A stretch of 64,000 nucleotides of DNA from Alphaproteobacteria bacterium. Its GTDB lineage: Bacteria > Pseudomonadota > Alphaproteobacteria > JAQWUY01. Position numbers and translations under genes: made by a program. Every line of letters begins with the position of its first letter. Within the stretch, counting starts at the first letter, position 1. This document shows, one piece after another, positions 30,872-54,939 of the stretch. Below the pieces are notes generated by a model. The model did no database searches, was not told the DNA's origin, and saw only the letters and a list, made by a program, of their open reading frames with translations. The stretch is from contig OZ246977.1 of assembly GCA_965232465.1 (NCBI GenBank), forward strand, positions 1,348,649-1,412,648. The letters run 5' to 3'.

Positions 30872-32337
30872 GTTCTCATATCCTGTATAATTTGTGTGAT
30901 AGTTTGCACATCACTGTGTGGATATATGGTATCGCCAATTATTTGTCCTGTTTCATGTCCTTTGCCTGCCACCAATACAATATCCCCCTGCTCAGCCGTA
31001 TGCAAGGCATGGGCAATAGCATCAATGCGATTGCCTGCATCGACACACTTCATACGATTACCTTTTATAATCTGCTTACGAATAGTTGCGGGATTTTCAT
31101 GACGCGGATTATCATCAGTAACAAAAACAGCATCAGCATAATCACAAGCAATTTTACCCATTTTCGGGCGTTTGTCGTTGTCCCGATTACCCCCACATCC
31201 AAACACGATTATCAAACGATTTTGCGTATGTTCCCGTAACGCCTGTAATGCGGTCTGCAACGCATTAGGCGTATGGGCATAATCCAAATAAATATCCGCC
31301 CCAAGAGGGGTTTTTACCACAAACTGCATGCGACCACATACAGGGGTTATATGCGACAAATGGGGCATAATATCGCTTATATTTAATCCATTTTGTAATA
31401 CCAAACCGAGGGCACATAAGACATTTTCCAATTGAAACGCCCCAATTAAGGGAATATGTGTACAGATCCTTTGTTTCATAATGGTCATATGTACATAAAA
31501 TCCCGTTTCTGTAGTGGATAAAGCGTACACATGAATATCTGGCACCCCCACCATTTTTTTACCCACAACCCCATACGATATTACCCGAATGTCCCGTGCC
31601 AAACATATGTGTTGCAAATGACAAAATTCCTTAGTACCAGCGTTTAAAACAGCGGTACTTTGGGGGGGAAGTACATGGGAAAACAACCGAGATTTTGCCT
31701 TAAAATACGATGCCATATTCCCATGATAATCCAAGTGGTCGTGGCTAAGATTGGTAAATGCCCCTACTTGCACTGACAAACCGTCTAGCCGACACATATT
31801 TAATCCATGTGAAGATGCTTCCAAGCACGCATATTCCACATTATGCTGTGTGTGTGCATCATATAATATTCGATGTAAATCTGCTGGTTCGGGCGTAGTC
31901 AGGGAAATACTGTCATCCTGTATGGCGCCTTGCACCCCCATCGTGCCCACAGAAATAGCTGATTTACCACATTTTTGTAATAATTGCGTAGCAAAATTGG
32001 CAACACTAGTTTTCCCATTGGTACCTGTTACCATCATAATATATCTGGGTTTTGGCATATAAAAAACATTACACATTTGTGCATATACTCGACGGGGGTT
32101 TTTACAATATATCACTTGTATGGTATTGGGAATATCCGATAAACTGTCTTGTATATCCATATGGGTGATAATCACTTGTGCCCCATTTTCAATGGCATCA
32201 TAAATGAAATCTGTTCCATTCATTACTGTACCCCGCACCGCCAAAAATGCCATACCTGTTTTGACCATACGGCTGTCGCTGGTTAAACCGGAAATAAAAT
32301 AAGATGTATCATTGTATATAATAGTTTTGTATATCAT
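30868..32337 (-). CDS. murE: UDP-MurNAc-L-Ala-D-Glu--2,6-diaminopimelate ligase
   Basis: Mur ligase; MVTGTNGKTSVA. Confidence 0.9.
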   Translation of the reverse strand: MIYKTIIYNDTSYFISGLTSDSRMVKTGMAFLAVRGTVMNGTDFIYDAIENGAQVIITHMDIQDSLSDIPNTIQVIYCKNPRRVYAQMCNVFYMPKPRYIMMVTGTNGKTSVANFATQLLQKCGKSAISVGTMGVQGAIQDDSISLTTPEPADLHRILYDAHTQHNVEYACLEASSHGLNMCRLDGLSVQVGAFTNLSHDHLDYHGNMASYFKAKSRLFSHVLPPQSTAVLNAGTKEFCHLQHICLARDIRVISYGVVGKKMVGVPDIHVYALSTTETGFYVHMTIMKQRICTHIPLIGAFQLENVLCALGLVLQNGLNISDIMPHLSHITPVCGRMQFVVKTPLGADIYLDYAHTPNALQTALQALREHTQNRLIIVFGCGGNRDNDKRPKMGKIACDYADAVFVTDDNPRHENPATIRKQIIKGNRMKCVDAGNRIDAIAHALHTAEQGDIVLVAGKGHETGQIIGDTIYPHSDVQTITQIIQDMRT

Positions 32338-34469
32338 GAGGTCTTTTTCCTGCGGGCTTTGCGTTTCTCATAACTCAGTATTTTTAAATCCTGTACTTGT
32401 TGGCTGTTTTCATCCACAGGTATAATTCCCAATACTGGGGCAATTCGTTTTACAATATTATGTACTGTGGGTGCGGCCACCTGCCCACTGGTTAATTCCC
32501 CCGATTTTGGGGCATCGACCATCACATACACCACATACTTAGGGGCGTGCATAGGAAAACCCGCAATATAAGACAAAATTACCGTGTCTTCATCGTATAC
32601 GCTGTTCTTAACTTGATTGGCGGTTCCCGTTTTACCCCCCAAAACAAACCCTTTAACAGCGGACTTTCTGCCCGACCCCTCCAGCGTATTTAACCGCATC
32701 AATTTACGGATAGCATCGGAAGTTTTCGTCGATACTACACGGTGGGCATCATGTATTTGATTGCCATCAGATTTAATAAATTTAGGCGTATGGTACATTC
32801 CCCCGTTAATCAAAGACGCCACGGCAGCAGTTAAATGCAAAGGTGTTACAGAAATACCATGCCCATACGCAATGGTCATTGTTTCCACCTGACGCCACTG
32901 TGAAGGATATAAGGGTTTTGCTTTTTCAGGTAGCACAATTTGCAATTGATTCAAAAAGTTCAGTTTTTCCATCATCTGTTTTTGCTTTTTTGTCCCAACC
33001 TTTTTCGCCATAAGTGCCGCCCCAATATTAGACGAATAAATAAAAATTTCGCTAACATCTAGGACACGGTTTTTTGCATGATAATCCTTAATGATATGGT
33101 GATTTATCCGCAATGGTTTGCGGGCATCAAATGTATCGCTAATTTTTACCAATCCACTTCCCAGTGTCATAGCAGAATTAATAATTTTAAAAGTGGAACC
33201 CAGTTCATACAGCCCCATAGTTGCACGGTTAAATTTAGATAATGCGTCTGATTGTTGCACATGATTGGGATTAAAATCTGGCATCGACACCATGGACACC
33301 ACTTCACCATTTGTTACATTCATAACAATTGCCACGCCCCCAGTGGCATCAGTAGCTTCAATTATTTTGGACATTTCCGATGTAACAATATGCTGTACAC
33401 CCGTATCCATAGTTAAATGTAAGGGCTGTTTATCGACCTTTAACAAAGTATTTTTGGATTTTTCAATCCCACTGATACCATTATTATCCACATCCACATA
33501 CCCCAATACATGGGAAAATAATGCCTCTTGTGGATATATACGCATATAGCGATCTTGCGTTTTATCGAATGTAATCGCTGGATCACCGATGGCATTAACA
33601 TCATATTGCTGTTGCGGAGTGGTACGGCGTTTTATCAATACATACTCCAACTTTTTCTCCACCTTTTGTAAAATATCTTCGTACGACATTTGGGGAAATA
33701 TATTTAATAATGCTTTGCTTAATCCCTTAGAATCTGTAACTTGACGGGGTTTTATATAAACATATTTTTTATCAGAAAAACTGAATAATTCCTTATACAA
33801 TTCGCTAATCACTTTTAAGGAATTCCATTCGCTAGTGTTCAAATTATCTGTTAGTAGCACTTTGCCTATGCCATTTTGTAATGTATTGTATATTTGGTCA
33901 TACGATATATTTGTAAAAATTTTGGCAAGTACATCAACAATTTCCCCCATATCTGTAATTTTATCTGTGTCCACATATACATAAGTTTTATTGTCCACAA
34001 CCACCGCCTCCTGCCCATATGTATCCCCCAAGGCAATCAGGGCATGGTATTGCACACTATCAATATGTTTTTGTAACAAAACACGACTGGATTTTCGGGT
34101 TACTTTATCATACATATCCGCATATGGTACATCTGAAAATATAGCTACAAGGCTGCGGGTTAATTTTTTCGCATTTTTTACTACACTGGGATTTACAATC
34201 ACCCACTCGGTACTCAGCATACCGGCAATCAGTACGCCTTTTGCATCATAAATATTGCCCCGCACATCATTGTTAATATCAGAGCGTGTACCATTGCTAT
34301 TTTTTCGCACATCAGACAAACTGATAAAGAAAATTTTTATCAATAATATGACATATACAACACCAATTATTCCACTAATTAGCCATACTCTGGGTCGTAA
34401 AATGCTTTTTACCGCACTTTCCCCCACTTGCATAGGTATCATAAGGTTATATTTTTGTATCATCAGCAT
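32334..34469 (-). CDS. ftsI: Peptidoglycan D,D-transpeptidase FtsI (PBP3), unusually long at 711 aa with a triplicated N-terminal module
   Basis: TM anchor, PBP dimerisation region and a transpeptidase with STFK and KTGTA motifs. The internal repeats are described in the findings. Confidence 0.85.
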   Translation of the reverse strand: MLMIQKYNLMIPMQVGESAVKSILRPRVWLISGIIGVVYVILLIKIFFISLSDVRKNSNGTRSDINNDVRGNIYDAKGVLIAGMLSTEWVIVNPSVVKNAKKLTRSLVAIFSDVPYADMYDKVTRKSSRVLLQKHIDSVQYHALIALGDTYGQEAVVVDNKTYVYVDTDKITDMGEIVDVLAKIFTNISYDQIYNTLQNGIGKVLLTDNLNTSEWNSLKVISELYKELFSFSDKKYVYIKPRQVTDSKGLSKALLNIFPQMSYEDILQKVEKKLEYVLIKRRTTPQQQYDVNAIGDPAITFDKTQDRYMRIYPQEALFSHVLGYVDVDNNGISGIEKSKNTLLKVDKQPLHLTMDTGVQHIVTSEMSKIIEATDATGGVAIVMNVTNGEVVSMVSMPDFNPNHVQQSDALSKFNRATMGLYELGSTFKIINSAMTLGSGLVKISDTFDARKPLRINHHIIKDYHAKNRVLDVSEIFIYSSNIGAALMAKKVGTKKQKQMMEKLNFLNQLQIVLPEKAKPLYPSQWRQVETMTIAYGHGISVTPLHLTAAVASLINGGMYHTPKFIKSDGNQIHDAHRVVSTKTSDAIRKLMRLNTLEGSGRKSAVKGFVLGGKTGTANQVKNSVYDEDTVILSYIAGFPMHAPKYVVYVMVDAPKSGELTSGQVAAPTVHNIVKRIAPVLGIIPVDENSQQVQDLKILSYEKRKARRKKTS

Positions 34470-35820: not shown

Positions 35821-36276
35821 TTACCCCTGACTTGGTTTCTTAATTTTTAAACCAGATTTAACAAATCCTTCCCGATGCCCTTTAAACAATTTTTCGTACA
35901 AGTCAGGTTGCCATATCTGAAAATGCCAACCACTGCCAACAAACACCGCTTTATCCGAAATACCTGCAAACTGTGCCAATTCTTCGGGTAATACAAACCG
36001 CCCTGTCATGTCATAACTTATCAAACGGGCATTTGCCATAATGTAATTTAAAATATGTTCGTCTTCGGAAAACATTGGGGCATTTTCCGCCATACTGTTA
36101 ACAATAAGATCCATTAAATCCTCGCTTCCTGCCTCTAAATAATCAGTTCTGGGCGATGGAAAGGCACAAAAATCTGTTGCAGAAGTCTTTTCCAAAACAT
36201 CACGAAATGCTGAAGGCAAAGAAACTCTACCTTTTGTATCAACTTTATTCGTATATGTACCAACAAAATATTTCAC
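35821..36276 (-). CDS. mraZ: Transcriptional regulator MraZ
   Basis: 151 aa; N-terminal KVDTKGRVSLPSAFR. First gene of the dcw cluster. Confidence 0.9.
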   Translation of the reverse strand: MKYFVGTYTNKVDTKGRVSLPSAFRDVLEKTSATDFCAFPSPRTDYLEAGSEDLMDLIVNSMAENAPMFSEDEHILNYIMANARLISYDMTGRFVLPEELAQFAGISDKAVFVGSGWHFQIWQPDLYEKLFKGHREGFVKSGLKIKKPSQG

Positions 36277-36563
36277 TTAAATACACCTTTAAAAACGATA
36301 CCCTTATAAAATAATAATCATAGTATAAAATGGAAAAGTATGGTTGTCAATGGTTTTTTGTAGTATTTTATGGTAAAACATGGATATTATACACAAATAC
36401 TATGCTACACCCCTTGTTTTTAAAAGATTTCAGAGTATATAAGACAAAAAAATAATTCTTTTTTTATTTCATTAAAACAACATGATACATAAAATATCTT
36501 GCACATCCCCCTCCCTCCCATAAATTACAATCTATGGTGTTATATTATTATGGTTTTTAATAC

Positions 36564-36593
36564 TTGAAAAAAAAAAAAAATCCTCTGTATACT
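36564..36593 (+). promoter_or_regulatory. Putative sigma-70-type promoter of the adhesin gene with an A14 homopolymer in the spacer
   Basis: TTGAAA (36564-36569), an 18-bp spacer made of 11 A's plus tcctctg, then TATACT (36588-36593). The A-run spans 36567-36580. Confidence 0.4.
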
Positions 36594-36662
36594 TATATTG
36601 TGGTGCCTGTTTGGGCGGGTGCCGAATTAAACTGTAATATTAAGATATTGAGGATGAAACAC

Positions 36663-39600
36663 ATGAAAAAATCTTTATGGGCAACGGCTAGTGTTATTGT
36701 GCTGGCATATACAACACCTGTATTCACCGATGACACGGACAAAGTGGTCAATGCCACGGGGAATATGTTTATGGATAGCATAAACAGAACAGGGTTTTTT
36801 GAATGGATAAGCGGCGGGGTCGGCTATACAGATAAAACCCTAAATTGGGATATTACCGCTTTTAGCAACCTGTCGGAAACAAAAGACACGGTTACATATT
36901 TGCAAACTTCTTATAATCGTCAAAAGTCAGTGAATCGATTAAACTTGGGGTTGGGGTATCGGAAGCGTATTGATACAACTGCTACCCCATTAATTGTTGG
37001 GGTCAATGCGTTTTTTGATAGCAAGGACGGGACAAAGAATATACTTGCTTTTAAGGCATCGGACAATTTCCAACGGTTTAGTGTGGGGGCGGAACTGAAA
37101 ACCGCACGGTTTGACATGGCGGCAAACCTATATCGTCGCATTGGCAATACCATTATCGACGATAAGAAAGTATTACAAGGCTGGGATATCACCGCTAAGG
37201 GCAATATCCCCAATTATGAACAGGTGTCTGTGGGGGTGGGGACCTATAGATTCGATGGGGTTGAGGATACAGTTGTTAGGGGCAATAAATTGATTGCCGA
37301 ATTTACCCCCAATGCGGTGGTAACAGTGCGGGGCACATATGACAAACCCAATGGCGAATCGGCACAGACCGATATATCGGTCGATTTTAAATTGGCATTC
37401 GACAAAAGTATACAAGACCAATTAAAATCCGCCCCTGTATCCGGTACAGATGCCGTATGGCACAAACGCTATGACAAGGTCGAACGGCACTATGATATTA
37501 AAACAGCGGAGGCACAGTCCACCCCCACATTAGGCACCGCTATCAGCAGTGCAGATTTGGCAACAAATAACATCAGTTCTGGCGATGGGACAACAGAACA
37601 ATCTGCATACGCCTTACAAAACAGCCAAAACTATGAGATACTAAACTTTGCTGGCACAATCGATAGTACTGATACTATTGAGGTCACTGTTGCAAAAGTG
37701 AGTGGCGATGGGGTGAAAGGCACGGACTTTCAGTTATACGCAAGCGATGGGACAACTGTTATTGCATTAGCGGATGTAACCGCAGATAGCAAGTTCGAAG
37801 ATAAAGCGGGGGGCAGAGAAGCCACCTTACAATTTACTTTTAGTGCGGATGGATTTAAAGACCGGGTGGTATTCGTTAAAACCAACAGCACTTTCACCGG
37901 TACTTTAACAATGGCAGATCTTGTTCTCCCCTATGCGTCTGGGACTGTAACGGTTAGCACCGCCGATATATTGGGTAAATTAACTGTATCCGGCAGCCAA
38001 ACACAAAAATCCGATTGGACAATTAAGAGCCTAACAGACACAGATAGTCATGCGAATCTTACGGTGAATGGCAAGACTCTGACTGTATCCGGGACAATCG
38101 GGTCCCCTACCACTGTAACCGCTGTATTCGAACATCCTGAGTATGCGGATCAGACCAAAACCTTCGAACTGTCCACAGGTGCCGGTACATTGGGGGGAAC
38201 GCCTACGGGGTTATCGGGTAAATGGGGCAAAACCTTTGCTGTGGATTATAAACTAAAAACTTCTGATACGGTGGGGGATGTAACAGTATCGTTTGATACA
38301 GGTGCCGATTTCAGCTTTAAGATTTTACCCCGTACTGATGGCAGTAAGGGAGGTAAGACCGCCACCACCGCAGGTATTATTGACACATCAAAAACAGCGA
38401 TTAACGCCAGTACTGGGGCAATTAATGGGGCAGCACTGACCAAATCGGGAACCTTGTTAGTGGAAATAGTCCGTGCCGCCAAAGGCGGATTGCCAGAGCT
38501 AACAGTATATGAAAATATTACGGTGAATAAACAAGTACTGGGTACAGATGTAACCACTATCCCGACCATATCGTTAAACAGTGGCGACAATAAGTGGAAA
38601 ACAGGGAATAGCAAATTTGACCTAAAATATACCAACCTGCCCGGCGGTCTGGCGGCGAATGCGTTTTCGTGGGCGGTTGCCAAAAAAACAGGGGCGGCAC
38701 CCAGTGGTACGGTCCGAATCGATAATGATGGTAAAATCAGTGGAGCAACCTCCGCTGGTACAGTGGTTATCACCTTAACCGCCAAAGGGGATAAATACAG
38801 TGGTAGTTTAACCTTAGCGGACTTTGCCATTGCCAAGCAAACAACGACAGATACGCTAACTATGGCGGATCTTGTCATATCCTATTCAGATGGGGATGGA
38901 AATAAAGTGGTAAGCACCGCAGAGATACTGGGGCAATTGTCCGTATCCGGGGGGCAAACACAAAAATCCCAATGGACACTGGTAAGCGTTGCCGACACGG
39001 ATAACAATGGCGATCTTGCTGTAACGGGTGGTGGCAAAACCCTAACCATATCCGATGAGATTAAAACCAAAACAACGGTTACCGCCACATTGTCGCATCC
39101 TGCGTATGAAAATAAGACGGCGACATTTGAATTGTCGACGGAGCCATCGAAGATAAGTACAACGGCACCCAGTGGGTCAGGTAAGTGGGGTAAATCGTAT
39201 ACTACGAATTATAATTTAAGACGTACGGTGGGGAGTGTAACATTTACTAATGCAGATTACACCTTCTCTATTGTGCCAACGGGCGATGATGGCAGTGGTA
39301 AGACACCCACCACCTCAGGTATTGTTGCCAGTGGGCAAAATGCTATAAGTAACCCCAGAACCGGGGCGATTGATGCCAGCAAATTAACCAAATCGGGTAC
39401 CTTATTGATAAAAATTGTCCGTGCGGCAAAAGGTGCTGGTGCCGCCCGAGTAGATGCGGTAACTGAATACCAAAACTTTACGGTGAGCAAACAGGACAGC
39501 ACAGACCACACCGGCTTTACTGTGTCCGCTGGGGCTATTGCATGGGCAACGGCAAGTACAGCGGTTACATATACCCTAACGAATGGTCCTGCGGGTATTG

Positions 39601-41924
39601 GCACCGCCACATACGCCTTGACAGCATCGGGGACAACGGCGGGTACGACCACAGGAGCTAGTGCTATCACCGTAGCGTCGAGCGATGGTAAGATTGGCAA
39701 AACCACTAAGAGTGGGGTGGTAAAAGTCAAGGTTACCTATGCCGCCAACGACAAATATGAAACGATGACCCGGGATGTGGATGTAACCATCAATAAGCAA
39801 GCGGGCACAGGGGCATTAACTATGGGGAACCTTGTGATACCGTATGGGGGGTCTGGGGATACAAAAGTAAGCACCGCCACCATAACAGGGAAATTGGGTG
39901 TACCCAGTGCCGGTGGTTTAGGGGCAAAATCGGATTGGACCTTAAAAAGCCTAGCGGATACGGATAGTAATTCGAATCTTACTGAAACGGATAGTGGCAA
40001 GACTTTGACCATATCCGGAGCAATCACCACCAGTACAACGGTTACCGCCACCTTCGAAAGTGATAAATACACGGATAAGTCCGCCACCTTTGAACTATCG
40101 ACTGGTGCCGGGGCAATGAGCACCGGCGATACCCGGACGGGACTATCCGGTAAATGGGGTATAGGGTTTAGCACAGCGGCGGATTATAAATTAAAACTGT
40201 CTGATAGTGTGGGCGATACGAGCGTAACCTTTACAAAAGGTGCCACCTCAACGCCGGGCGATTATACCTTCTCTATCGTTACGGGGAATGTGCCAAGTGA
40301 TGCACCGTCGGGGGCAAAAGCGACCACCACCAGTATCCTTGACACATCGAAAACGGCGATTAACGCCAACACTGGGGCTATTAATGCGGCGGCACTGGTC
40401 AAATCGGGCGACCTGTTGGTAAAAATCGTCCGCAAAGCCAAAAGCGGATTGCCCGCATTAACAGATTATGAAAATATTACCGTAACCAAACAGGATAGCA
40501 GCGACCACACCGGATTTACTGTATCGGCTGGGGCGATTACATGGAACGCCAATAGCCAAACGGTTTCGTATACAGAAAATGCCAGCAAACCTGCGGGTAT
40601 TGGCACCGCCACATATGCCTTAATAGATACAGGTACAACCGCCGGTACTGTAGCGGGCGGTAAAGGCACTATCGAAGTAACTTTGAGCAATGGTAAAATT
40701 GCAAAAACTGTCCGTAGTGGGGTGGTAAAAGTTAGGATTACCTATGCAGCCAACGATAAATACGCACAAATGACCCGAGATGTGGATGTACCCATCAATA
40801 AACAAACGGCAGCAGGGACGCTTAGTATGGCAAATCTTGTTGTACCCTATACATCCGGCAATAAAACAGTAAGCACCGCCGATATACTGGGGCAAATGAC
40901 TGCTCCAACAGGAACACAAAAAGCCGATTGGACCCTAAAAAGCCTAGCAGATACAGATAGTAATGGAAACCTTGCCATTGATGTGGGTGGAAAGAGTATA
41001 ACCATATCGGGGACAATACCCGCAGGGACAACAGTTACCGCTGTATTTGAAAGTGTCAAATATAATGATAAAACCGGTATAACCTTTGAACTATCCACAA
41101 GCAAAGGGACAATGAGTTCTGGCACCCGTACGGGATTATCGGGTAAATGGGGTACAGGCTTTACTAGTTCTACGAATGTGGATTATAAGTTAAAACTTTC
41201 TGATACAGTTGGGGATACAACAGTAACCTTTACAAAAGGTACAACAACGAATGCCGGCGATTACACCTTTACTATTTTACCCACCAGTGCTGGCAGTAAA
41301 GGGGGTAAAGACGCTACCACCTCAGGTATCGCATTAACCGGGGCAATTAACGCTAATACAGGGGCTATTGATGGGACAAAACTGACAAAATCAGGGAAAT
41401 TGTTAGTAAAAATTGTCCGTAAAGCCAAAGGGGGATTATCCGAAATCACCGATTATGAAAATATTATTGTGACGAAACAAGTACTAACACCAGCGGTTGC
41501 TTCTTCTGTAAAATCAGTCCAAGCTCCTGGAGCACTTCATACCATGACGCAAGCGGGTACGGCAAGTGATCCCTTTGCAACAGCATCACGGCAACTATAT
41601 CCGATCAGCAAATTAATATCTGTACCCAGTGGATTAGGCACACCAACTGTTACAGTAACTTGGACTGAATCGGGCAATTTGCAAACACAAGGATTAGGTG
41701 TTAGTGTCATTAACGACAGACTAGGAGCCCCAGATTTTAATATAATGAACAGCAATAAAGGGACAACAATTCCTAACGCATTACAAAGAAATATTTTTGA
41801 TTTTTTCAATAGGGACGCAACAAATACTGTACAACTTATCTTTACCTTTACCAACCCTGATACAGATAAGTACGATCTAACACAATCGGTTATTAATGTA
41901 TATATAAAAGGAAATGCCGGATAA
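36663..41924 (+). CDS. Giant surface protein, putative inverse autotransporter (intimin/invasin-type beta-barrel plus bacterial Ig-like repeats)
   Basis: Signal peptide MKKSLWATASVIVLAYTTPVFT. The N-terminal ~250 aa align by eye with the intimin beta-barrel. About 1400 aa of Big_2-like Ig modules follow in four ~1-kb tandem units, then a unique ~150-aa C-terminus. ATG 36663 has a GAGGA ribosome-binding site 10 nt upstream; ATG 36654 is an alternative. The track start at 36564 is a TTG running through the poly(A) and is rejected. Confidence 0.65.
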   Translation: MKKSLWATASVIVLAYTTPVFTDDTDKVVNATGNMFMDSINRTGFFEWISGGVGYTDKTLNWDITAFSNLSETKDTVTYLQTSYNRQKSVNRLNLGLGYRKRIDTTATPLIVGVNAFFDSKDGTKNILAFKASDNFQRFSVGAELKTARFDMAANLYRRIGNTIIDDKKVLQGWDITAKGNIPNYEQVSVGVGTYRFDGVEDTVVRGNKLIAEFTPNAVVTVRGTYDKPNGESAQTDISVDFKLAFDKSIQDQLKSAPVSGTDAVWHKRYDKVERHYDIKTAEAQSTPTLGTAISSADLATNNISSGDGTTEQSAYALQNSQNYEILNFAGTIDSTDTIEVTVAKVSGDGVKGTDFQLYASDGTTVIALADVTADSKFEDKAGGREATLQFTFSADGFKDRVVFVKTNSTFTGTLTMADLVLPYASGTVTVSTADILGKLTVSGSQTQKSDWTIKSLTDTDSHANLTVNGKTLTVSGTIGSPTTVTAVFEHPEYADQTKTFELSTGAGTLGGTPTGLSGKWGKTFAVDYKLKTSDTVGDVTVSFDTGADFSFKILPRTDGSKGGKTATTAGIIDTSKTAINASTGAINGAALTKSGTLLVEIVRAAKGGLPELTVYENITVNKQVLGTDVTTIPTISLNSGDNKWKTGNSKFDLKYTNLPGGLAANAFSWAVAKKTGAAPSGTVRIDNDGKISGATSAGTVVITLTAKGDKYSGSLTLADFAIAKQTTTDTLTMADLVISYSDGDGNKVVSTAEILGQLSVSGGQTQKSQWTLVSVADTDNNGDLAVTGGGKTLTISDEIKTKTTVTATLSHPAYENKTATFELSTEPSKISTTAPSGSGKWGKSYTTNYNLRRTVGSVTFTNADYTFSIVPTGDDGSGKTPTTSGIVASGQNAISNPRTGAIDASKLTKSGTLLIKIVRAAKGAGAARVDAVTEYQNFTVSKQDSTDHTGFTVSAGAIAWATASTAVTYTLTNGPAGIGTATYALTASGTTAGTTTGASAITVASSDGKIGKTTKSGVVKVKVTYAANDKYETMTRDVDVTINKQAGTGALTMGNLVIPYGGSGDTKVSTATITGKLGVPSAGGLGAKSDWTLKSLADTDSNSNLTETDSGKTLTISGAITTSTTVTATFESDKYTDKSATFELSTGAGAMSTGDTRTGLSGKWGIGFSTAADYKLKLSDSVGDTSVTFTKGATSTPGDYTFSIVTGNVPSDAPSGAKATTTSILDTSKTAINANTGAINAAALVKSGDLLVKIVRKAKSGLPALTDYENITVTKQDSSDHTGFTVSAGAITWNANSQTVSYTENASKPAGIGTATYALIDTGTTAGTVAGGKGTIEVTLSNGKIAKTVRSGVVKVRITYAANDKYAQMTRDVDVPINKQTAAGTLSMANLVVPYTSGNKTVSTADILGQMTAPTGTQKADWTLKSLADTDSNGNLAIDVGGKSITISGTIPAGTTVTAVFESVKYNDKTGITFELSTSKGTMSSGTRTGLSGKWGTGFTSSTNVDYKLKLSDTVGDTTVTFTKGTTTNAGDYTFTILPTSAGSKGGKDATTSGIALTGAINANTGAIDGTKLTKSGKLLVKIVRKAKGGLSEITDYENIIVTKQVLTPAVASSVKSVQAPGALHTMTQAGTASDPFATASRQLYPISKLISVPSGLGTPTVTVTWTESGNLQTQGLGVSVINDRLGAPDFNIMNSNKGTTIPNALQRNIFDFFNRDATNTVQLIFTFTNPDTDKYDLTQSVINVYIKGNAG
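37899..41480 (+). repeat. Four diverged ~0.95-1.0-kb tandem coding repeats inside the adhesin gene
   Basis: Unit starts near 37899, 38851, 39808 and 40811; each begins T/ALTMADLV-type and ends ENITV(T/N)KQ. Units 2 and 3 carry an extra ~100-aa Ig-like sub-module. Confidence 0.8.
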
Positions 41925-41940
41925 TACTTTTAAATTTATA

Positions 41941-41963
41941 AAGGGGCTTAGCCCCTTTTTATT
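41941..41963 (+). terminator. Rho-independent terminator after the adhesin gene
   Basis: aggggc-tta-gcccct hairpin followed by a T-run. Confidence 0.7.
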
Positions 41964-42000
41964 GTTCATATATTGACAAAATACATTACGATATAATTAC

Positions 42001-42271
42001 TTGATTCAATATATAGTCAATTCGGCATAAAATGATTCACCATAATTATACTGCACATTTTATTTTGTTGGTTATATGGTGAATCTAAGGGGCTAACGCC
42101 CCAGCTTCTCTGTACATTCTTGCGTTTAATGTGGATTTACCCATGCTTTGCATGACAAAAACCCACACATGTTCACCCCACTTTGCACCCCGATCGGACA
42201 CCACAATGCCACTATGGGGCAGGCGGTTGCAACCGCATTTTGTCAATCAAATTATATTTGATTGACTATAT
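42001..42271. mobile_element. MITE-like non-coding repeat, copy A (271 bp), with 11-bp terminal inverted repeats ATATAGTCAAT
   Basis: Left end atatagtcaat (42001-42011) and right end attgactatat (42261-42271). Internal 25-bp perfect palindrome gtcaatcaaattatatttgattgac (42242-42266). The ~80-bp left module is repeated at 50155-50240. TA dinucleotides flank both ends. Confidence 0.5.
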
Positions 42272-42427
42272 GATATGCTTTACAATCAGGATTGATTTCT
42301 GATTGTGTAGTATGTGATCTCCTGCTTCTTTTCGTCATAAGTAAGTCTCCTTAGTGTTAAATGTGGTATATGCTGAATATAACACATAGGGTAATAAATA
42401 ACACTTACACAAATTTCATGACAGACT

Positions 42428-45058
42428 CTACAATTTTTCAAGGACTAATTTAGTTTTTTTCACAATTTGCTGGGCATCTGCCAAAGATTTTTTATCTTTT
42501 TCGATGATATGGGTGGGGGCTTGGGATAAGTATCCTGCGTTGCTTAATTTTCCCGAAAACTTTTTCACATCGCCTTGGGCTTTTTTCAATACTTTGCTTA
42601 GCCGTGTGATTTCTGCATCTGTATCAATGGCACCATCGAAAGGGATAAACACTGTGGCACCATCTTGTAAGAATTGCCCCGCCCCTTGAATCGGTGTATC
42701 AATCTGTATAATCGGGTTGGTTTTTGCCAGTTTTTGTATCAAATCTGCATGCGTTTGCAATGCTTGATGCCGATCAGTGTGTACACCCATAACTTTTACA
42801 TCAATAGTATTTTGGGCGGGAATGTTCATTTCTATGCGGATTGAGCGTAATTTTGTAATAAAGCGTTTGATATAATCAATTTCATCTTGGGCAACCTTAT
42901 CTGTATTATCCGCTGATTGTTGTAACCACCCTGCCCCGATAAGAGCTGTATCTTTGGTACCAAACTCTGTCCATAATTCTTCGGTAATAAAGGGAATCAT
43001 TGGGTGCAGAAGTTTTAAAATATGTTGATACACCCAGCCCATTGTATGGCGGGTTTCGATAATAATATTATCGTTTTCTGATCGATATAAAGACTTGGAA
43101 AATTCTACATACCAATCACAAAATGTCCCGCGGACAAAATGATATAATACATTGGAAGCTTCCGAAAAACGATAAGATTCGATGGCTTTTTCGAAATTGT
43201 CTTTTGCTTGTATTAAATCAGCAATAATCCAGCGGTTAATAGGGCTATTTGGACTGGCTATATCAAAGTCCTTGGGGGCATACGCTTTGTTTATTTCACA
43301 AAACTTGCCCGCATTCCAAATTTTGGTTAAGAATCCTTTTGAACCTTCGACCCGTGATGTACTGAATTTAATGTCTTTTCCTGGTGTAGAAAGGCTAGAT
43401 AATGTAAACCGTAAAGCATCCGTTCCATATTGTTTAATCAAGATTAGAGGATCGATAACATTGCCTTTTGACTTGGACATTTTTGCCCCTTTTTCATCCA
43501 ATACTAAGGCATGTACGACCACCGTATGAAAGGGTTCAACCCCCATAAAGTGAATTCCCATCATCATCATACGGGCAACCCAGAAAAACAAAATATCAAA
43601 TCCTGTTACCAAAATATCATTTTGATAATATCTGTCTAATTCAGGGGTATTTTCTGGCCAGCCCAATGTGGAAAACGGCCACAAGGCGGATGAAAACCAA
43701 GTGTCCAAAACATCACTGTCTCTTTTCAATACCACATCATCACCAAACTGTACTTTTGCCTGTGTATACGCATCTTGTTTTGTATCCGCCACAAATACAG
43801 TGCCATCTGGTGCATACCAAGCGGGAATCTGATGTCCCCACCACAATTGACGGGAAATACACCATGGTTGGATATTATCCATCCAGTCAAAATATGTTTT
43901 TGTCCAATTTTCGGGAATAATTTTTGTACATCCTGATTTAACCGCTTCAATGGCGGGTTGTGCCAATTTTTCTGCATCCATATACCACTGATCGGTCAAA
44001 AAGGGTTCAATCGGCACCCCCCCTCTGTCCCCATAAGGTACTGTGTGGGTATATTCTTCCACATGATTTAAATATCCAAGTACTTCCATATCTTCAACCA
44101 CTTTTTGACGACAGATAAACCTTTCGAGTCCTCTGTATTTATTTGGTACATTATCATTCATATACCCATTTTTGGTTAAGATATTGATACTTTCCAAGTC
44201 TTGGCGTTTGCCCACTTCAAAATCATTAAAATCATGGGCGGGTGTTATCTTTACCGCCCCTGTGCCTTGTTGGGGATCGGCATATGCATCGGCAACAATG
44301 GGAATATACTTACCCGTAAGCGGTTGAATACACATCTTACCCACCAAATCTGTATACCGTTCGTCATCAGGATGCACAGCAACACCCGTATCACCAAGCA
44401 TGGTTTCCGGGCGAGTGGTACCCACCGTAATAAAGGTGTTTTCAAGCCCTACAATAGGATAGTTAAAAAACCACATATGTCCATTGACTTCTGTTTGAAT
44501 CACTTCTAAGTCAGAAATTGCTGTTTCCAGTTTTACATCCCAATTCACCAGCCGTTTGTCACGGTATATAAGCCCTTGGTTATACAATTCGACAAAAACT
44601 TTGACAACCGCCTTACTCAGCCCTTCATCCATGGTAAAGCGTTCATGATTCCAATCGGTGGAATTGCCCAATCTGCGTTGTTGTTGGACAATCTGTCCGC
44701 CAGATTGGCGTTTCCATTCCCACACTTTTTCCAAGAACCTATCCCGTCCCAAATCATGGCGTTTAAGTCCTTGTTTATTGAGCATCCTCTCGACCACCAT
44801 TTGTGTGGCAATACCCGCATGGTCTGTCCCTGGTACCCACAAAGTGTCAAAACCTTGCATGCGCTTATACCTTATAATAATATCTTGCATAGTATTATTT
44901 AACGCATGACCCATATGTAAATTGCCTGTTACATTAGGGGGGGGAATGACCACAGAAAATGGTGTCCCCACACCAGAAGGGGTAAAATATCCCCCTTGTT
45001 CCCATTTGTCATATATATCTTGTTCCCGATTCGCATGCAAAAAGGTTTTGTCTAACAT
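42428..45058 (-). CDS. valS: Valine--tRNA ligase
   Basis: 876-aa class I aaRS with HMGHALNNTMQD (HIGH) and KMSKSKGN (KMSKS) motifs and a C-terminal coiled coil. Confidence 0.95.
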   Translation of the reverse strand: MLDKTFLHANREQDIYDKWEQGGYFTPSGVGTPFSVVIPPPNVTGNLHMGHALNNTMQDIIIRYKRMQGFDTLWVPGTDHAGIATQMVVERMLNKQGLKRHDLGRDRFLEKVWEWKRQSGGQIVQQQRRLGNSTDWNHERFTMDEGLSKAVVKVFVELYNQGLIYRDKRLVNWDVKLETAISDLEVIQTEVNGHMWFFNYPIVGLENTFITVGTTRPETMLGDTGVAVHPDDERYTDLVGKMCIQPLTGKYIPIVADAYADPQQGTGAVKITPAHDFNDFEVGKRQDLESINILTKNGYMNDNVPNKYRGLERFICRQKVVEDMEVLGYLNHVEEYTHTVPYGDRGGVPIEPFLTDQWYMDAEKLAQPAIEAVKSGCTKIIPENWTKTYFDWMDNIQPWCISRQLWWGHQIPAWYAPDGTVFVADTKQDAYTQAKVQFGDDVVLKRDSDVLDTWFSSALWPFSTLGWPENTPELDRYYQNDILVTGFDILFFWVARMMMMGIHFMGVEPFHTVVVHALVLDEKGAKMSKSKGNVIDPLILIKQYGTDALRFTLSSLSTPGKDIKFSTSRVEGSKGFLTKIWNAGKFCEINKAYAPKDFDIASPNSPINRWIIADLIQAKDNFEKAIESYRFSEASNVLYHFVRGTFCDWYVEFSKSLYRSENDNIIIETRHTMGWVYQHILKLLHPMIPFITEELWTEFGTKDTALIGAGWLQQSADNTDKVAQDEIDYIKRFITKLRSIRIEMNIPAQNTIDVKVMGVHTDRHQALQTHADLIQKLAKTNPIIQIDTPIQGAGQFLQDGATVFIPFDGAIDTDAEITRLSKVLKKAQGDVKKFSGKLSNAGYLSQAPTHIIEKDKKSLADAQQIVKKTKLVLEKL

Positions 45059-45147
45059 AAATATTTCCTTATTATATCAAACTGTTTTATCAACGCTTTA
45101 ATTTTAAAAATCGTTACATATGCGTTTCTTTAAATCCAGAGAATATA

Positions 45148-46416
45148 TTATAAATCGCTAAATTTATCAACCGTCATGTTACCTGTTATGGTTAATATAT
45201 CGACAATTGCCAAAGCGTATTGTTTTAATCCTGTCACATATTGTTGGGTGGCATTGATTTCGGCTTCTATTTTTTCCAACAATGCATCAGAGGTGGATTG
45301 TCCTGCGTTATATTTCACCTGTTCCGTCTCAACCGCCACTTTGTTTGCTTGTACAGTGATTAAATTGGCATCCAACAGATTTTTTTGTGTCACATACACC
45401 TGCCAAAATTGCCGTAAGGTATTACGGACTGTGTTTTGTTCTACTTTTAGGCGAATGGCATTATTGCCCAGATTCAAGGTGGTTTTTTCAGTCTTTAGGC
45501 GGTTACTTTTGTTCACATCAAATGTTATGTTGTATTGAAGGTTAATTGTATTGTTTAATTCCCCCCCATCGATGATATTTTTACGGCTTGATGCGGATAA
45601 AGTAACCGTACCTTTGCGTTCCGCATGTTCGGATGCAAGGGTATTTTTCAGTTTATCCCTATTATTAATAAGGATTTTTAAATCCGGATTGTGAACAAAT
45701 GCCTGTTCGATGGCCATATCAAGGCTAGCAGGCAATGATACTTTCGACAAATCAGGAATCGGCAAGTTTTCAGGAGCTTTAAACCCAACAATCCGTTCGA
45801 ATTCTTGTTCGATATTACTTAATTGCACTTCTAAGCCAATACGGGTGGCTTTAATGCGGGCAAATTTTGCCTGTGAATTCAATTTTACAGATTCGGACAA
45901 AGTGCCATTTTGAAAATTGATATTATCGCGTATCATCGCAGATTCAGCGGATTTTTCGCTCTGTAGTTGCGTTTCATATTGCCGTCTTAATTCGATAAGC
46001 GAAAAATAAGTATTTATAATTGTTTTAATGACCGAAGTTTCTGTTTTATAATATGTCAAGTCCGCATTTTTTTCGTCGATGAGTGCATTTTCATAAGCTA
46101 ATTCTTCACGTCCAAATGTGTATGCCGTCCAGCGCCCCGATAAGGTTGCAGAAGATGCATTGCCATCACGATTTACAGATTCCAATCCACCTGTAAATCG
46201 GTTGCTGGCATCCACAGATAGCGACAATGTGGGTTTAAGTTCCGCCACCAATCGTTCTGTATCCAGCTTAGTCGTGTCCCGTACCGCCCGTGCCAAATTA
46301 ATTTCATCCAATGTATTTAATGCCAAATTTAAGGCATTATAAAATGTAACCGGCTGTGCATAAGACACCCCCAAAAAGGTAAATATACCCATGCTGATAA
46401 GTTTCGTTTTTAACAT
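45148..46416 (-). CDS. TolC-family outer membrane efflux channel
   Basis: Signal peptide followed by two tandem TolC-like helical/barrel repeats. Confidence 0.75.
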   Translation of the reverse strand: MLKTKLISMGIFTFLGVSYAQPVTFYNALNLALNTLDEINLARAVRDTTKLDTERLVAELKPTLSLSVDASNRFTGGLESVNRDGNASSATLSGRWTAYTFGREELAYENALIDEKNADLTYYKTETSVIKTIINTYFSLIELRRQYETQLQSEKSAESAMIRDNINFQNGTLSESVKLNSQAKFARIKATRIGLEVQLSNIEQEFERIVGFKAPENLPIPDLSKVSLPASLDMAIEQAFVHNPDLKILINNRDKLKNTLASEHAERKGTVTLSASSRKNIIDGGELNNTINLQYNITFDVNKSNRLKTEKTTLNLGNNAIRLKVEQNTVRNTLRQFWQVYVTQKNLLDANLITVQANKVAVETEQVKYNAGQSTSDALLEKIEAEINATQQYVTGLKQYALAIVDILTITGNMTVDKFSDL

Positions 46417-46560: not shown

Positions 46561-46634
46561 GGCGCGGTGGCGGAGAGGCTACGCAGAGGACTGCAAATCC
46601 TCGTACACCGGTTCGAATCCGGTCCGCGCCTCCA
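46561..46634 (+). tRNA. tRNA-Cys (anticodon GCA)
   Basis: GGCGCGG acceptor, anticodon loop GGACTGCAAATCC, T-arm GGTTCGAATCC, 3' CCA. Confidence 0.9.
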
Positions 46635-53987: not shown

Positions 53988-54939
53988 TTATCTTTCATAT
54001 TTTATATGCTTACCAAGCAACAGAAATTGTAACCCTGCGATAGTCAATCCGATGATTAAAATAATAATGGTTTGTGCCGCCGCCCCCGATAAATCGAGTC
54101 CCACAAACGCATCCTGATATAATTTGTATATAATCAATGTGGTTTCCCCACGGGGATTACCTTCGGTCATAATGTTAATTAACGCAAATGATGATGTTAA
54201 ACCTTGGTTAATTTCCAATAACATGGTGATAAATAATTGTGGCGTAATAAAGGGCAACTGCATATCCCATAACCGTCGCCATGCCCCCGCACCATCCATA
54301 GCCGCCCACCGGAGTTACACTACCAATTGCAGCAGATAACCGTCGCCATGCCCCCGCACCATCCATAGCCGCCGCCTTATGCAAAGTATTTGGAATAGCC
54401 TGTAAACCGGCGAGTATAACCACAAAATTAAAGGGAATATTGCCCCATATACTGGCAATATAAATCATAATCCATGCGTGTAAAGTGTTGTCCCGTGGAC
54501 TCCATAGTTCGGGGTACTTATCGGCAAATCCCGCTAAAAACCCCATTTGTGGGTCAAGTATAAATACAAACACCACACCAGCACTAGCCGCTGCAAACGC
54601 CTTTGGCCAAATAAATACACTGCCAATATGACGGGTGCCACGCACACCTCTGTCCACTGCTAAAGCCAATATTAAAGATATGGAAATTGCCAAAAACGAA
54701 GAGATCATCATGTATATGATTGTCCGTATAACAACTGTGATAAATTCCCCATCGCTCAGCAATTCTATGAAATTATCAAACCCCACATATTCTGTACTGC
54801 CCCCAAATGGGGATTCCAAATGAAACGCCCAATAAAACGATACCAATATGGGTGTAAAGAAAAATAACATTACTAATATAAGGCAGGGGGAGGCAAATAG
54901 CATAGCATGTAAAGTATTATGAAAGTATCCTTGTCGCAT
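53988..54939 (-). pseudogene. ugpA: ugpA-like ABC permease pseudogene (frameshifted by a 67-bp insertion/duplication)
   Basis: The 36-bp sequence aaccgtcgccatgcccccgcaccatccatagccgcc occurs at 54271-54306 and again at 54338-54373, separated by 31 bp. MDGAGAWRRL is therefore encoded twice and the frame breaks. Both flanking frames are MalF/UgpA-like. Confidence 0.75.

What the first reader, a model, noticed from the sequence alone, without database searches (positions are those of the whole stretch)
36663..41924. Giant intimin/invasin-type inverse autotransporter encoded divergently from the cell-division (dcw) cluster
A Sec signal peptide opens the protein. The next ~250 residues align by eye, block for block, with the intimin beta-barrel: GWDITAKGNIPNYEQVSVGVGTYRFDG against intimin GFDIRFNGYLPSYPALGAKLIYEQYYGD; LIAEFTPNAVVTVRGTYDKPNG against ATVGVNYTPIPLVTMGIDYRHGTG; ISVDFKLAF against LYSMQFRYQF. 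After the barrel come ~1400 aa of Ig-like (Big_2-like) modules, for example ATYALTASGTTAG...VVKVKVTYAANDKYETMTRDVDVTI. Type Ve adhesins are described mainly in enteric Gammaproteobacteria. A 1.75-k-aa member in an AT-rich alphaproteobacterial-like genome, directly next to mraZ, would be a prime candidate host-cell attachment factor.
Basis: partly seen in the sequence, partly recalled or inferred. Interest (0 to 1): 0.75.

Follow-up and report, generated by a model that had tools for sequence, protein, structure and literature searches.

The report
Mosaic inverse-autotransporter adhesin, one of sixteen
The gene really does encode a giant intimin/invasin-type (type Ve) surface protein in an unnamed alphaproteobacterium, and it is one of at least 16 patchwork paralogs that may be switched by a poly-A tract in the promoter and reshuffled by recombination.

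Summary
Window 36663-41924 (+) is an intact 1753-aa gene. It opens with a Sec-type signal peptide. An IAT_beta barrel follows (Pfam PF11924, 98.9 bits against a cut-off of 22.3), and a family profile hits only the invasin and intimin barrels in the PDB. After the barrel come 12 beta-sandwich modules (E-A-B-D-A-B-C-A-B-C-A-B) and a 147-aa tip. AlphaFold2 models E-A-B-D at pLDDT 92 as four Ig-like domains. Pfam detects no Big_1, Big_2, Invasin_D3, Intimin_C or LysM; the C/D modules link to Big_2 only indirectly, through other proteins.

1. The gene is one of at least 16 paralogs (974-3757 aa, about 3.7% of a 2.63 Mb genome). They are assembled from the same module set with different tips. The modules occur in only 35 of 1.84 billion representative proteins.
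2. An A14 run, the longest homopolymer in the window, sits in the 18-nt spacer of the best promoter match. A distant relative has the same arrangement.
3. A near-identical strain carries this passenger joined to the 5' end and upstream flank of paralog P0012, with the crossover inside the conserved barrel-coding region.

Membership of type Ve is solid. Phase variation and passenger swapping are inferred. The ligand and host are unknown.

The parts
36564..36593 (+). Sigma-70-like promoter match, TTGAAA-18 nt-TATACT
   Evidence: Best + strand match in 36200-42450, 10 of 12. The same geometry is found in L082 (TTGAAA-18-TATAAT) and in the distant relative L081 (TTGACA-18-TATACT). It is a consensus match only; the transcription start has not been mapped.
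36567..36580 (+). A14 homopolymer inside the promoter spacer (it overlaps the -35 hexamer); a candidate slipped-strand switch
   Evidence: It is the longest homopolymer in 64 kb; the next longest is 9. L082 has A14, L081 A14, L084 A15, L085 A9 and L083 A8. In L081, L082 and L084 the tract upstream of the IAT gene is by far the longest homopolymer in the locus; in L085 it ties at 9, and in L083 longer G and C runs of 9 exist.
36594..36662 (+). 5' leader conserved among paralogs, with the Shine-Dalgarno GAGG at 36650-36653
   Evidence: It aligns with few changes to the leaders in L082 and L085, although the DNA further upstream is unrelated. The GAGG lies 9 nt before ATG 36663.
36663..41924 (+). 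Coding sequence of the 1753-aa inverse autotransporter (stop codon included)
   Evidence: ORF listing. Exact protein on record as P0020.
36663..36728 (+). Sec-type signal peptide (residues 1-22, MKKSLWATASVIVLAYTTPVFT|DD)
   Evidence: Charged n-region, 13-residue hydrophobic core, V-F-T at -3 to -1, and no Cys, so it is not a lipoprotein. Feature-based inference.
36849..37493 (+). IAT_beta outer-membrane barrel domain (residues 63-277)
   Evidence: PF11924, E 5e-28, 98.9 bits against a cut-off of 22.3. The family profile hits only invasin 4E1T (1.3e-11) and intimin 4E1S (5.3e-9) in the PDB.
37458..37499 (+). Linker motif WHKRYDKVERHYDI, aligned to intimin RYDLVQRNNNI and invasin RYNLVDRNNNI
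   Evidence: HMMER alignments. W266, K268, R269, Y270, D271, V273 and R275 are invariant across the family.
36511..36965 (+). Zone that diverges from strain contig L082 (about 60 mismatches); the crossover lies at its 3' edge, inside the barrel-coding region
   Evidence: L082 against the window: 2 mismatches over 36966-45408, about 60 over 36511-36965, and unrelated DNA upstream (rimP-nusA-infB instead of mraZ). The first 112 aa of L082 are 100% identical to P0012. The window protein is 100% identical to P0012 over residues 81-280.
37533..37886 (+). Module E (membrane-proximal beta-sandwich; 0-3 copies among paralogs)
   Evidence: HMM mapping. AF2 model residues 1-120, block pLDDT 74-94.
37899..38840 (+). 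Super-repeat 1: modules A (37899-38183), B (38196-38534) and D (38547-38840)
   Evidence: HMM mapping. AF2 pLDDT about 90-98, all-beta. Ig-like/cadherin-like matches.
38850..39800 (+). Super-repeat 2: modules A (38850-39143), B (39165-39494) and C (39513-39800)
   Evidence: HMM mapping. The C and D HMMs converge, so the two are homologous.
39810..40805 (+). Super-repeat 3: modules A (39810-40109), B (40128-40493) and C-type (40494-40805)
   Evidence: HMM mapping. 58-65% identical to super-repeat 2.
40815..41480 (+). Partial super-repeat 4: modules A (40815-41102) and B (41121-41480)
   Evidence: HMM mapping.
41481..41921 (+). C-terminal tip domain (147 aa, class III); the presumed ligand-binding end
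   Evidence: No Pfam or PDB match. Its only relatives are the C-terminus of P0029 (33.5% identity, E 1e-11) and an internal stretch of P0027. It shares the last two-strand motif (...KY...Y) with the other tip classes. The AF2 model failed at pLDDT 44.
41940..41958 (+). Intrinsic-terminator-like hairpin AAAGGGGCTTAGCCCCTTT followed by a T-rich tail
   Evidence: it starts 16 nt after the stop codon.

Best explanation
The gene encodes a working type Ve (inverse autotransporter) surface protein.

Proposed mechanism. Most steps are inferred from homology; only the sequence and fold features are shown.
- The Sec system exports the precursor.
- Residues of about 23-280 form an intimin/invasin-type outer-membrane barrel, and the conserved RYDKVER linker occupies its pore.
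- The cysteine-free passenger is threaded out and folds into a chain of 12 Ig-like beta-sandwich modules. At a typical Ig-domain length of about 4 nm (from memory), this gives a stalk of several tens of nm.
- The stalk presents a 147-aa variable tip that carries the binding specificity.

The gene is one of at least 16 paralogs in a 2.63 Mb genome. All are built from the same module set (barrel, then 0-3 E modules, then repeats of A-B plus one or more C/D modules) and end in at least three tip classes.

Two features suggest that the family is a variable repertoire and not 16 fixed adhesins. First, an A14 tract sits in the 18-nt promoter spacer, so gaining or losing one A would retune or switch transcription. 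Second, there is patchwork identity between paralogs, and in one strain this passenger sits behind another paralog's promoter and 5' end.

My probabilities: type Ve membership about 0.95; adhesin-like surface stalk about 0.8; recombinational shuffling between paralogs about 0.6; poly-A-mediated phase variation about 0.4.
For: - Intact ORF and start codon.
- Signal-peptide features and zero cysteines in 1753 aa.
- IAT_beta at 98.9 bits against a cut-off of 22.3. The only NCBIfam hits with E <= 1e-6 are to inverse-autotransporter models. The family profile hits only the invasin and intimin barrels in the PDB and includes the linker motif.
- The passenger (E-A-B-D) is modelled at pLDDT 92.1 as four all-beta domains. 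These match tandem cadherin/Ig chains, an RTX-adhesin repeat, S-layer domains, intimin D00-D0, FdeC and Lig domains.
- Sixteen paralogs lie on the same 2,630,883-bp contig, with shuffled module orders and variable tips.
- The modules are lineage-restricted: 35 hits in 1.84 billion representatives.
- A14 is the longest homopolymer in the window and lies in the spacer of the best promoter match. The same layout is conserved in an unalignable distant relative.
- Mosaicism and the strain-level junction.
- A terminator follows directly after the stop codon.
Against: - The 12-strand topology therefore rests on homology.
- Pfam Big_1, Big_2, Invasin_D3, Intimin_C and LysM are all absent.
- The tip fold is unknown, so binding function is inferred only from its position and variability.
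- No length polymorphism of the A-tract at a single locus was observed. The window, L082 and L081 all have A14, which fits a fixed promoter feature equally well. In L085 the shorter tract is compensated by an alternative -10 hexamer.
- The recombinant junction rests on one metagenomic contig at 2.5x coverage, which could be an assembly chimera across a roughly 600-bp identical tract. No reciprocal product was found.
- Nothing indicates a host.
Confidence: 0.8

Rival explanations
1. It is a classical intimin/invasin-like host-cell adhesin or invasin. A lectin-like tip binds a receptor on animal or protist cells.
For: It has the same secretion architecture and barrel as intimin and invasin. The stalk is long and Ig-like. 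An ankyrin-repeat protein lies next to the homolog in L081, which is a weak hint of eukaryote interaction.
Against: No Intimin_C, Invasin_D3 or C-type lectin signal was found. The tip has no cysteines, whereas the intimin and invasin tips are, from memory, disulfide-bonded lectin-like domains. The tip model failed. The window's other genes are ordinary housekeeping and uptake genes of a non-reduced genome. Organism and habitat are unknown.
Confidence: 0.2
2. It is a surface stalk for non-host functions, such as autoaggregation or biofilm formation, attachment to particles or algae, or cell-cell recognition. The many paralogs provide different specificities and not immune evasion.
For: Large inverse autotransporters such as E. 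coli YeeJ promote biofilm formation (title and abstract of PMC5595812). The structural matches include S-layer, SusE-like and RTX ice-binding-type adhesin repeats. The gene context looks free-living.
Against: There is no direct evidence either way. The variable tips, the mosaicism and the promoter A-tract are features usually tied to changing selective targets.
Confidence: 0.35
3. The extras are not a variation system. The A-tract is a fixed structural element of a family-specific promoter, and the rimP-linked copy in L082 is an assembly chimera. On this view the paralogs are simply old duplicates.
For: The tract has the same length, A14, in the window, L082 and L081. L082 comes from a 2.5x-coverage assembly. 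The chimera point coincides with a tract that is 100% identical between two paralogs, which is exactly where assemblers mis-join. No reciprocal product was seen (one search shows one member for the P0012 cluster).
Against: Runs of 14-15 A are intrinsically prone to slippage (general knowledge). Such a run is conserved in the spacer across unalignable promoters. Independent of L082, the patchwork of 100%, 90% and 40% identity blocks between paralogs within one finished genome requires gene conversion or recombination.
Confidence: 0.35
4. The gene is a decaying or non-functional repeat-rich ORF, or an assembly artefact.
For: Some paralogs are truncated or fused: P0010 lacks the barrel's N-terminus, P0014 has a broken barrel, and P0022 continues past an internal tip.
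Against: This copy is intact over 5.3 kb, with a promoter, an SD sequence, a signal peptide, a complete barrel, in-frame modules, a tip and a terminator. An independent assembly is identical over 8.4 kb apart from 2 mismatches and a few indels.
Confidence: 0.03

Closest known systems
Intimin (EaeA, E. coli) and invasin (InvA, Yersinia): type Ve secretion, Pfam IAT_beta PF11924, barrels 4E1S and 4E1T
   Same: N-terminal Sec signal. N-terminal barrel that is homologous over about 210 residues, including the RYDxVxR linker. C-terminal passenger of tandem Ig-like beta-sandwiches ending in a distinct tip. The passenger stays attached to the barrel (by homology).
   Different: No LysM domain. No Big_1, Intimin_C or Invasin_D3. 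Modules A, B and E have no Pfam or PDB sequence relatives. The tip is cysteine-free, unrecognised and could not be modelled. The source is an alphaproteobacterium, whereas the family was described as almost exclusively gammaproteobacterial (PMC4943183). There are at least 16 paralogs per genome.
Large E. coli, Salmonella and Yersinia inverse autotransporters (YeeJ, FdeC, SinH, YchO, YrIlm, Ilp)
   Different: All NCBIfam scores are far below the family cut-offs (29-49 bits against 508-1125), so the protein is an ortholog of none of them. The repeats belong to different sequence families.
Big_2 (PF02368) bacterial Ig-like domains, as in Leptospira Lig proteins and many surface proteins
   Different: Pfam Big_2 does not score this protein at E <= 1, so the modules are highly diverged. 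Module B contains a long structured insertion. Module A instead resembles unannotated repeats in BspA-type LRR proteins.
Promoter-spacer homopolymer switches: Mycoplasma hyorhinis vlp poly-A, Neisseria porA and opc poly-G/C (recalled from memory; the vlp reference is listed in PMC11868660)
   Same: A long homopolymer lies between the -35 and -10 hexamers of surface-protein genes that belong to a multigene family.
   Different: No length variation or ON/OFF correlation was shown here. The host is a Gram-negative alphaproteobacterium, and the cargo is a type Ve autotransporter.
Recombinational surface-protein repertoires such as Mycoplasma pulmonis vsa and M. agalactiae vpma (the promoter plus 5' coding end is moved onto other genes) and Anaplasma msp2 (PMC4534519)
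   Same: A conserved 5' coding block is shared by family members. In one strain the promoter plus the 5' end of one member is joined to the variable body of another.
   Different: Every member here appears to carry its own promoter and barrel, so there is no single expression site. No recombinase or inverted-repeat sites were identified, and the exchange looks like plain homologous recombination in an identical tract of about 600 bp.
Brucella BigA and BigB
   Same: Alphaproteobacterial outer-membrane adhesins with a bacterial Ig-like domain of the invasin/intimin family (PMC7697752).
   Different: No sequence relationship was tested or seen here. Our family is confined to a small unnamed lineage.

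Membership tests
Type Ve inverse autotransporter (intimin/invasin family) | N-terminal Sec signal peptide | tested here: met
   MKK, then a 13-residue hydrophobic core, then VFT|DD, with no lipobox. Paralog N-termini are conserved. Judged from features only; no SignalP-type tool was available.
Type Ve inverse autotransporter (intimin/invasin family) | IAT_beta barrel domain (PF11924) above the curated threshold | tested here: met
   98.9 bits against 22.3, E 5e-28, residues 63-277, profile positions 64-279 of 279.
Type Ve inverse autotransporter (intimin/invasin family) | Inverted order: barrel N-terminal, passenger C-terminal | tested here: met
   The barrel spans residues 63-277 and the passenger modules span 291-1753.
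Type Ve inverse autotransporter (intimin/invasin family) | Conserved linker that plugs the barrel pore (RYDLVQRNNNI in intimin) | tested here: met
   WHKRYDKVERHYDI aligns to the intimin and invasin linker. The motif is invariant across the family.
Type Ve inverse autotransporter (intimin/invasin family) | 12-stranded beta-barrel fold | not tested
The fold is inferred from homology over about 210 residues to 4E1S and 4E1T.
Type Ve inverse autotransporter (intimin/invasin family) | Passenger of tandem Ig-like domains | tested here: met
Type Ve inverse autotransporter (intimin/invasin family) | BAM-dependent insertion and surface display of the passenger | not testable with these tools
   Needs experiments.
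Intimin or invasin in the strict sense | Big_1 repeats plus a C-type-lectin-like tip (Intimin_C or Invasin_D3), and for intimin a LysM domain | tested here: not met
   None of these Pfam families is detected even at E <= 1. The NCBIfam equivalog scores are far below their cut-offs. The tip model was uninformative.
Big_2 (PF02368) for modules C and D | Match to the Big_2 profile | tested here: inconclusive
   The direct Pfam scan is negative. The link exists only indirectly: the family profile hits Big_2 proteins with whole-library E-values of 6.7e-15 to 8.4e-4, at coordinates that coincide with their Big_2 domains.
Phase-variable contingency locus (promoter simple-sequence repeat) | Hypermutable repeat placed where its length sets the -35/-10 spacing | tested here: met
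   A14 lies in the 18-nt spacer of TTGAAA...TATACT, and the arrangement recurs in L082 and L081.
Phase-variable contingency locus (promoter simple-sequence repeat) | Repeat-length polymorphism at the same locus within or between populations | tested here: inconclusive
   Only different loci could be compared (A14, A14, A14, A15, A9, A8). The metagenome scan for the leader gave only chance hits.
Phase-variable contingency locus (promoter simple-sequence repeat) | Expression state correlates with repeat length | not testable with these tools
   Needs reporter or transcript assays.

The most novel reading that the evidence does not exclude
An uncharacterised alphaproteobacterial lineage runs a combinatorial surface-variation system built on type Ve secretion. 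It has sixteen or more inverse autotransporters with lineage-specific Ig-like modules and interchangeable tips. Each is individually switched by slippage of a poly-A tract in its promoter spacer. Their passengers are exchanged between expression sites by homologous recombination in the conserved barrel-coding 5' block. This would be analogous to the mycoplasma Vlp and Vsa systems, but it has not been described for inverse autotransporters.
Probability: 0.3. Interest if true: 0.75.

Novelty: new variant of a known kind. Interest (0 to 1): 0.55.

Why it matters
Inverse autotransporters have been studied almost entirely as single virulence adhesins of enteric Gammaproteobacteria. Here the same secretion scaffold appears in a little-known alphaproteobacterium, expanded to about 3.7% of the genome. 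Its passenger modules have essentially no relatives outside the lineage, and it carries the hallmarks of a variable repertoire: a promoter homopolymer, mosaic paralogs and diverse tips. If this is confirmed, it would extend phase and antigenic variation to the type Ve system. It would also provide new, well-folding Ig-like modules (pLDDT above 90) for display engineering, and it would point to strong, changing selection on what this organism sticks to.

Tried and rejected
- A whole-protein self-BLAST returned only the identity hit. I replaced it with windowed queries.
- The genome-contig scan with the barrel found no relative. The source genome is not in that collection, and the ValS scan placed it only as a deep alphaproteobacterium, 71% to an unnamed MAG. 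That MAG's valS neighbourhood has no giant ORF.
- Exact look-ups of the window protein, P0001 and P0029 were not on record, so the other paralog loci of the reference genome could not be read.
- Profiles of modules C/D, B and A against PDB sequences gave only spurious hits to designed proteins, or nothing.
- Alignment A7 (module B plus tips) was misaligned by MAFFT and discarded.
- The tip model from A8 failed at pLDDT 44 and was not used for fold search.
- The metagenome scan for the promoter/leader pattern was too permissive.
- I considered and rejected the longer ORF from TTG 36564, because that TTG is the -35 hexamer, and the ATG at 36654, because the SD sequence abuts it.
- I looked for silent cassettes in the window; the module HMMs hit only this gene.
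- LysM, Big_1, Invasin_D3 and Intimin_C are absent.
Full report

Yes. A single long ORF runs from 36564 to 41924 on the + strand.

The start at 36663 is well supported. A GAGG at 36650-36653 lies 9 nt upstream of it. The paralogs begin MK(L)KKSLW. The upstream TTG at 36564 is the -35 hexamer of a promoter match, not a start codon. A terminator-like hairpin at 41940-41958 follows the stop codon.

The neighbours are as stated. mraZ (35821-36276, minus strand) is divergent across a 386-bp intergenic region, and rsmH and ftsI lie behind it. valS and a TolC-type OEP lie downstream on the opposite strand. GC is about 40%, rising to 44-48% inside the gene. That rise fits the Thr, Gly, Ala and Ser-rich passenger, which is 17% Thr.

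**2. The N-terminal part**

Residues 1-22 (MKKSLWATASVIVLAYTTPVFT|DD) have the n-, h- and c-regions of a Sec signal peptide and no lipobox. This is a judgement from features only.

Pfam places IAT_beta (PF11924) on residues 63-277 with E 5e-28, 98.9 bits against a gathering score of 22.3. The only NCBIfam hits with E <= 1e-6 are to inverse-autotransporter models (YchO, SinH, Ilp, YrIlm, Inv). All score far below their equivalog cut-offs, so the protein is an ortholog of none of them.

A profile of ten family barrels (A9) hits exactly two PDB sequence families at E <= 0.01. These are the invasin barrel 4E1T (1.3e-11) and the intimin barrel 4E1S (5.3e-9, query 73-279 against chain 30-239 of 242).

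The linker motif is too: WHKRYDKVERHYDI against intimin RYDLVQRNNNI and invasin RYNLVDRNNNI. The motif is invariant across the family.

There is no LysM domain; only about 40 mature residues precede the barrel. I did not model the barrel, so the 12-strand topology is inferred.

**3. The passenger**

Windowed self-comparison shows four super-repeats of about 320-335 aa. Iterated HMMs resolve the protein into barrel-E-A-B-D-A-B-C-A-B-C-A-B-tip. The HMM labels the third C-type module D, because the C and D models converge; the two module types are homologous.

Pfam finds no Big_1, Big_2, Invasin_D3, Intimin_C or fn3, even at E <= 1. Profiles of modules A, B and C/D find nothing credible among PDB sequences.

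An AlphaFold2 model of E-A-B-D (residues 291-726) was built with a 37-row alignment of repeat copies from the paralogs. It reached mean pLDDT 92.1 and shows four all-beta domains.

It has no cysteine at all, which fits translocation in an unfolded state.

**4. Are the modules Big_2?**

I ran an exhaustive HMMER search with the E-A-B-D profile against 1.84 billion representative proteins. It found only 35 proteins at E <= 1e-3 and 23 at <= 1e-30, so the module set is confined to a very small lineage.

The weak outliers are informative. P0044, P0047, P0051 and P0053 are Pfam Big_2 proteins. My C/D HMM aligns to them at coordinates that coincide with their Big_2 domains: P0053 640-710 against 638-711, P0047 102-170 against 110-175, and P0044 1104-1162 against 1108-1165.

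C/D, and more weakly B, are therefore highly diverged Big_2-type domains. Module A resembles unannotated repeats in BspA-type LRR proteins (P0049, P0050). P0045 is a more distant IAT (barrel 32% identical) with 13 C/D-like modules.

**5. The tip**

The last 147 aa have no Pfam or PDB match.

Among the paralogs the C-terminal 130-170 aa fall into at least three classes:
- class I, ending ...KKYNAFD..IY.V;
- class II, ending ...DG(R/K)Y......YWR;
- class III, the window protein's own class.

Class III has two relatives: the C-terminus of the 4161-aa P0029 (33.5% identity, E 1e-11) and an internal stretch of P0027. All three classes share the last two-strand pattern around an invariant Tyr.

The AF2 model of the tip failed at pLDDT 44, so the fold and the ligand are unknown. 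That the tip is the binding end is inferred from its position and its variability.

**6. A multigene family**

A search of 5.8 billion proteins returned only 16 clusters. With the cluster members, 16 proteins of 974-3757 aa map to the same 2.63 Mb contig. They total 32,528 aa, about 98 kb or about 3.7% of the genome.

Their architectures follow one grammar, barrel-E(0-3)-[A-B-(C/D)1-4]n-tip, but differ in length and order. Some are truncated or fused: P0010, P0014 and P0022. Related assemblies hold even larger versions of up to 6813 aa.

The window protein is a patchwork. It is 100% identical to P0012 over residues 81-280 and then only 38-55% over the next three 40-residue bins. It is 78-98% identical to P0009 over residues 281-440, which include module E. 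Each downstream module has its best match (74-91%) in a different paralog. Within one finished genome, this pattern requires gene conversion or recombination between paralogs.

**7. A strain-level junction**

A metagenomic contig, L082 (ENA ERZ26168041, 2.5x coverage), carries the same passenger and the same valS flank. Over window 36966-45408 it shows only 2 mismatches and a few indels. The preceding 450 bp or so carry about 60 mismatches, and the DNA further upstream is unrelated: rimP-nusA-infB instead of mraZ.

The first 112 residues in L082 are 100% identical to paralog P0012 and only 95.5% identical to the window protein. The simplest reading is a crossover in the barrel-coding tract that the two paralogs share identically. 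That crossover places this passenger behind P0012's promoter and 5' end.

The caveat is that a low-coverage assembly could mis-join exactly there. No reciprocal product was seen.

**8. A poly-A tract in the promoter**

The best + strand promoter match is TTGAAA(36564)-18 nt-TATACT(36593). Its spacer is filled by an A14 run at 36567-36580. This is the longest homopolymer in the 64 kb window; the next longest is 9.

The leader from the tract to the ATG is conserved in the paralog loci L082 and L085, although the DNA further upstream is unrelated.

The related loci compare as follows:

| Locus | Relationship | Promoter match and A-tract |
|---|---|---|
| L082 | same gene body, other strain | TTGAAA-18-TATAAT, A14 |
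| L081 | relative at 44% protein identity, flanks unalignable | TTGACA-18-TATACT, A14 in the spacer |
| L084 | paralog | A15, no clean hexamers |
| L085 | paralog | A9, with an alternative -10 (TATATT) that restores an 18-nt spacing |
| L083 | paralog | A8 only |

In L081, L082 and L084 the tract upstream of the IAT gene is by far the longest homopolymer in the locus. In L085 it ties at 9, and in L083 longer G and C runs of 9 exist.

An 18-nt spacer is one above the optimum, so gaining or losing one A should change promoter strength. This layout is known from Mycoplasma hyorhinis vlp (poly-A) and from Neisseria porA and opc (recalled from memory).

I could not show length polymorphism at a single locus. 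The metagenome scan meant to find it returned only chance matches. Phase variation therefore remains a hypothesis, at about 0.4.

**9. Context and lifestyle**

The module HMMs hit nothing else in the window, so there are no silent cassettes nearby.

The other genes are ordinary: the dcw cluster, gyrB, mfd, recG, plsX and fabH, a BCCT transporter, an ABC sugar-uptake system, GDPD and hydantoinase. Nothing indicates an obligate host association.

The organism could not be named. Its genome is absent from the searchable collections, and its ValS is 71% identical to an unnamed alphaproteobacterial MAG and 51-59% to Rhodospirillales-type and other alphaproteobacterial genomes.

**10. Comparison with what is known**

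The protein works like intimin and invasin, and it passes every tested defining feature of type Ve: signal peptide, IAT_beta, inverted domain order, linker motif and Ig-like passenger. It is not an intimin or an invasin in the strict sense, because it lacks Big_1, the lectin-type tip families and LysM.

Heinz et al. 2016 describe the family as almost exclusively gammaproteobacterial, with scattered groups in Chlamydiae and Cyanobacteria (PMC4943183). An expanded alphaproteobacterial family with lineage-specific modules is therefore unusual but not unprecedented in kind.

The repertoire features resemble mycoplasma surface-variation systems (PMC4534519) more than anything described for inverse autotransporters.

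**11. Verdict**

I rate it a new variant of a known kind, with interest 0.55. The most novel reading not excluded is a phase-variable, recombination-shuffled IAT repertoire, at probability about 0.3.

Noticed in passing
Similar A14-A15 tracts precede related genes in L081, L082 and L084.
   Followed up: yes
window 36511-36965 compared with L082 5745-6200: A near-identical strain contig breaks synteny here. It has rimP-nusA-infB upstream instead of mraZ, and the first 112 codons are identical to paralog P0012. This is either recombination or an assembly chimera.
   Followed up: yes
window 36322-36350 (minus strand): A near-consensus promoter match, TTGACA-17-TATACT (11 of 12), faces mraZ. The 386-bp intergenic region therefore seems to hold two divergent promoters.
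   Followed up: partly
window 32334-34469 (minus strand), FtsI residues of about 88-306: The FtsI/PBP3 homolog is long (711 aa). It carries three tandem copies of a roughly 73-aa segment in its N-terminal non-catalytic region (18-31% identity). The Pfam PBP_dimer match is stretched over 259 residues for 121 profile positions.
   Followed up: partly
L083 19327-22694: Beyond the giant paralog in this locus lies a DUF4096 transposase remnant, followed by a passenger fragment without a barrel (modules D-C-A-B-D-C). In the reference genome the same paralog (P0022) continues past an internal tip into further modules. This is either a silent cassette or a gene broken by an insertion sequence.
   Followed up: partly
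L081 5391-5789: An ankyrin-repeat protein (a weak Ank_5 match) lies directly upstream of the distant family member P0015. It is a faint hint of interaction with eukaryotes.
   Followed up: no
L084 11298-11910 and L085 15603-16756: Paralog loci are flanked by mobile or addiction elements: a Gp49/HTH toxin-antitoxin-like pair, and an IS with an rve integrase.
   Followed up: no
window 46561-46631 (+) and 6275-6360 (-): Two tRNA genes are the only Rfam matches in the window.
   Followed up: no
window 54208-54939 (minus strand): A 243-aa ORF between ABC-transporter components has no Pfam family at E <= 1e-6.
   Followed up: no
window 36588-36599: Two overlapping -10-like hexamers, TATACT and TATATT, lie 6 nt apart. 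In L085 the A-tract region is 6 nt shorter, which brings the second hexamer to the same 18-nt spacing.
   Followed up: partly
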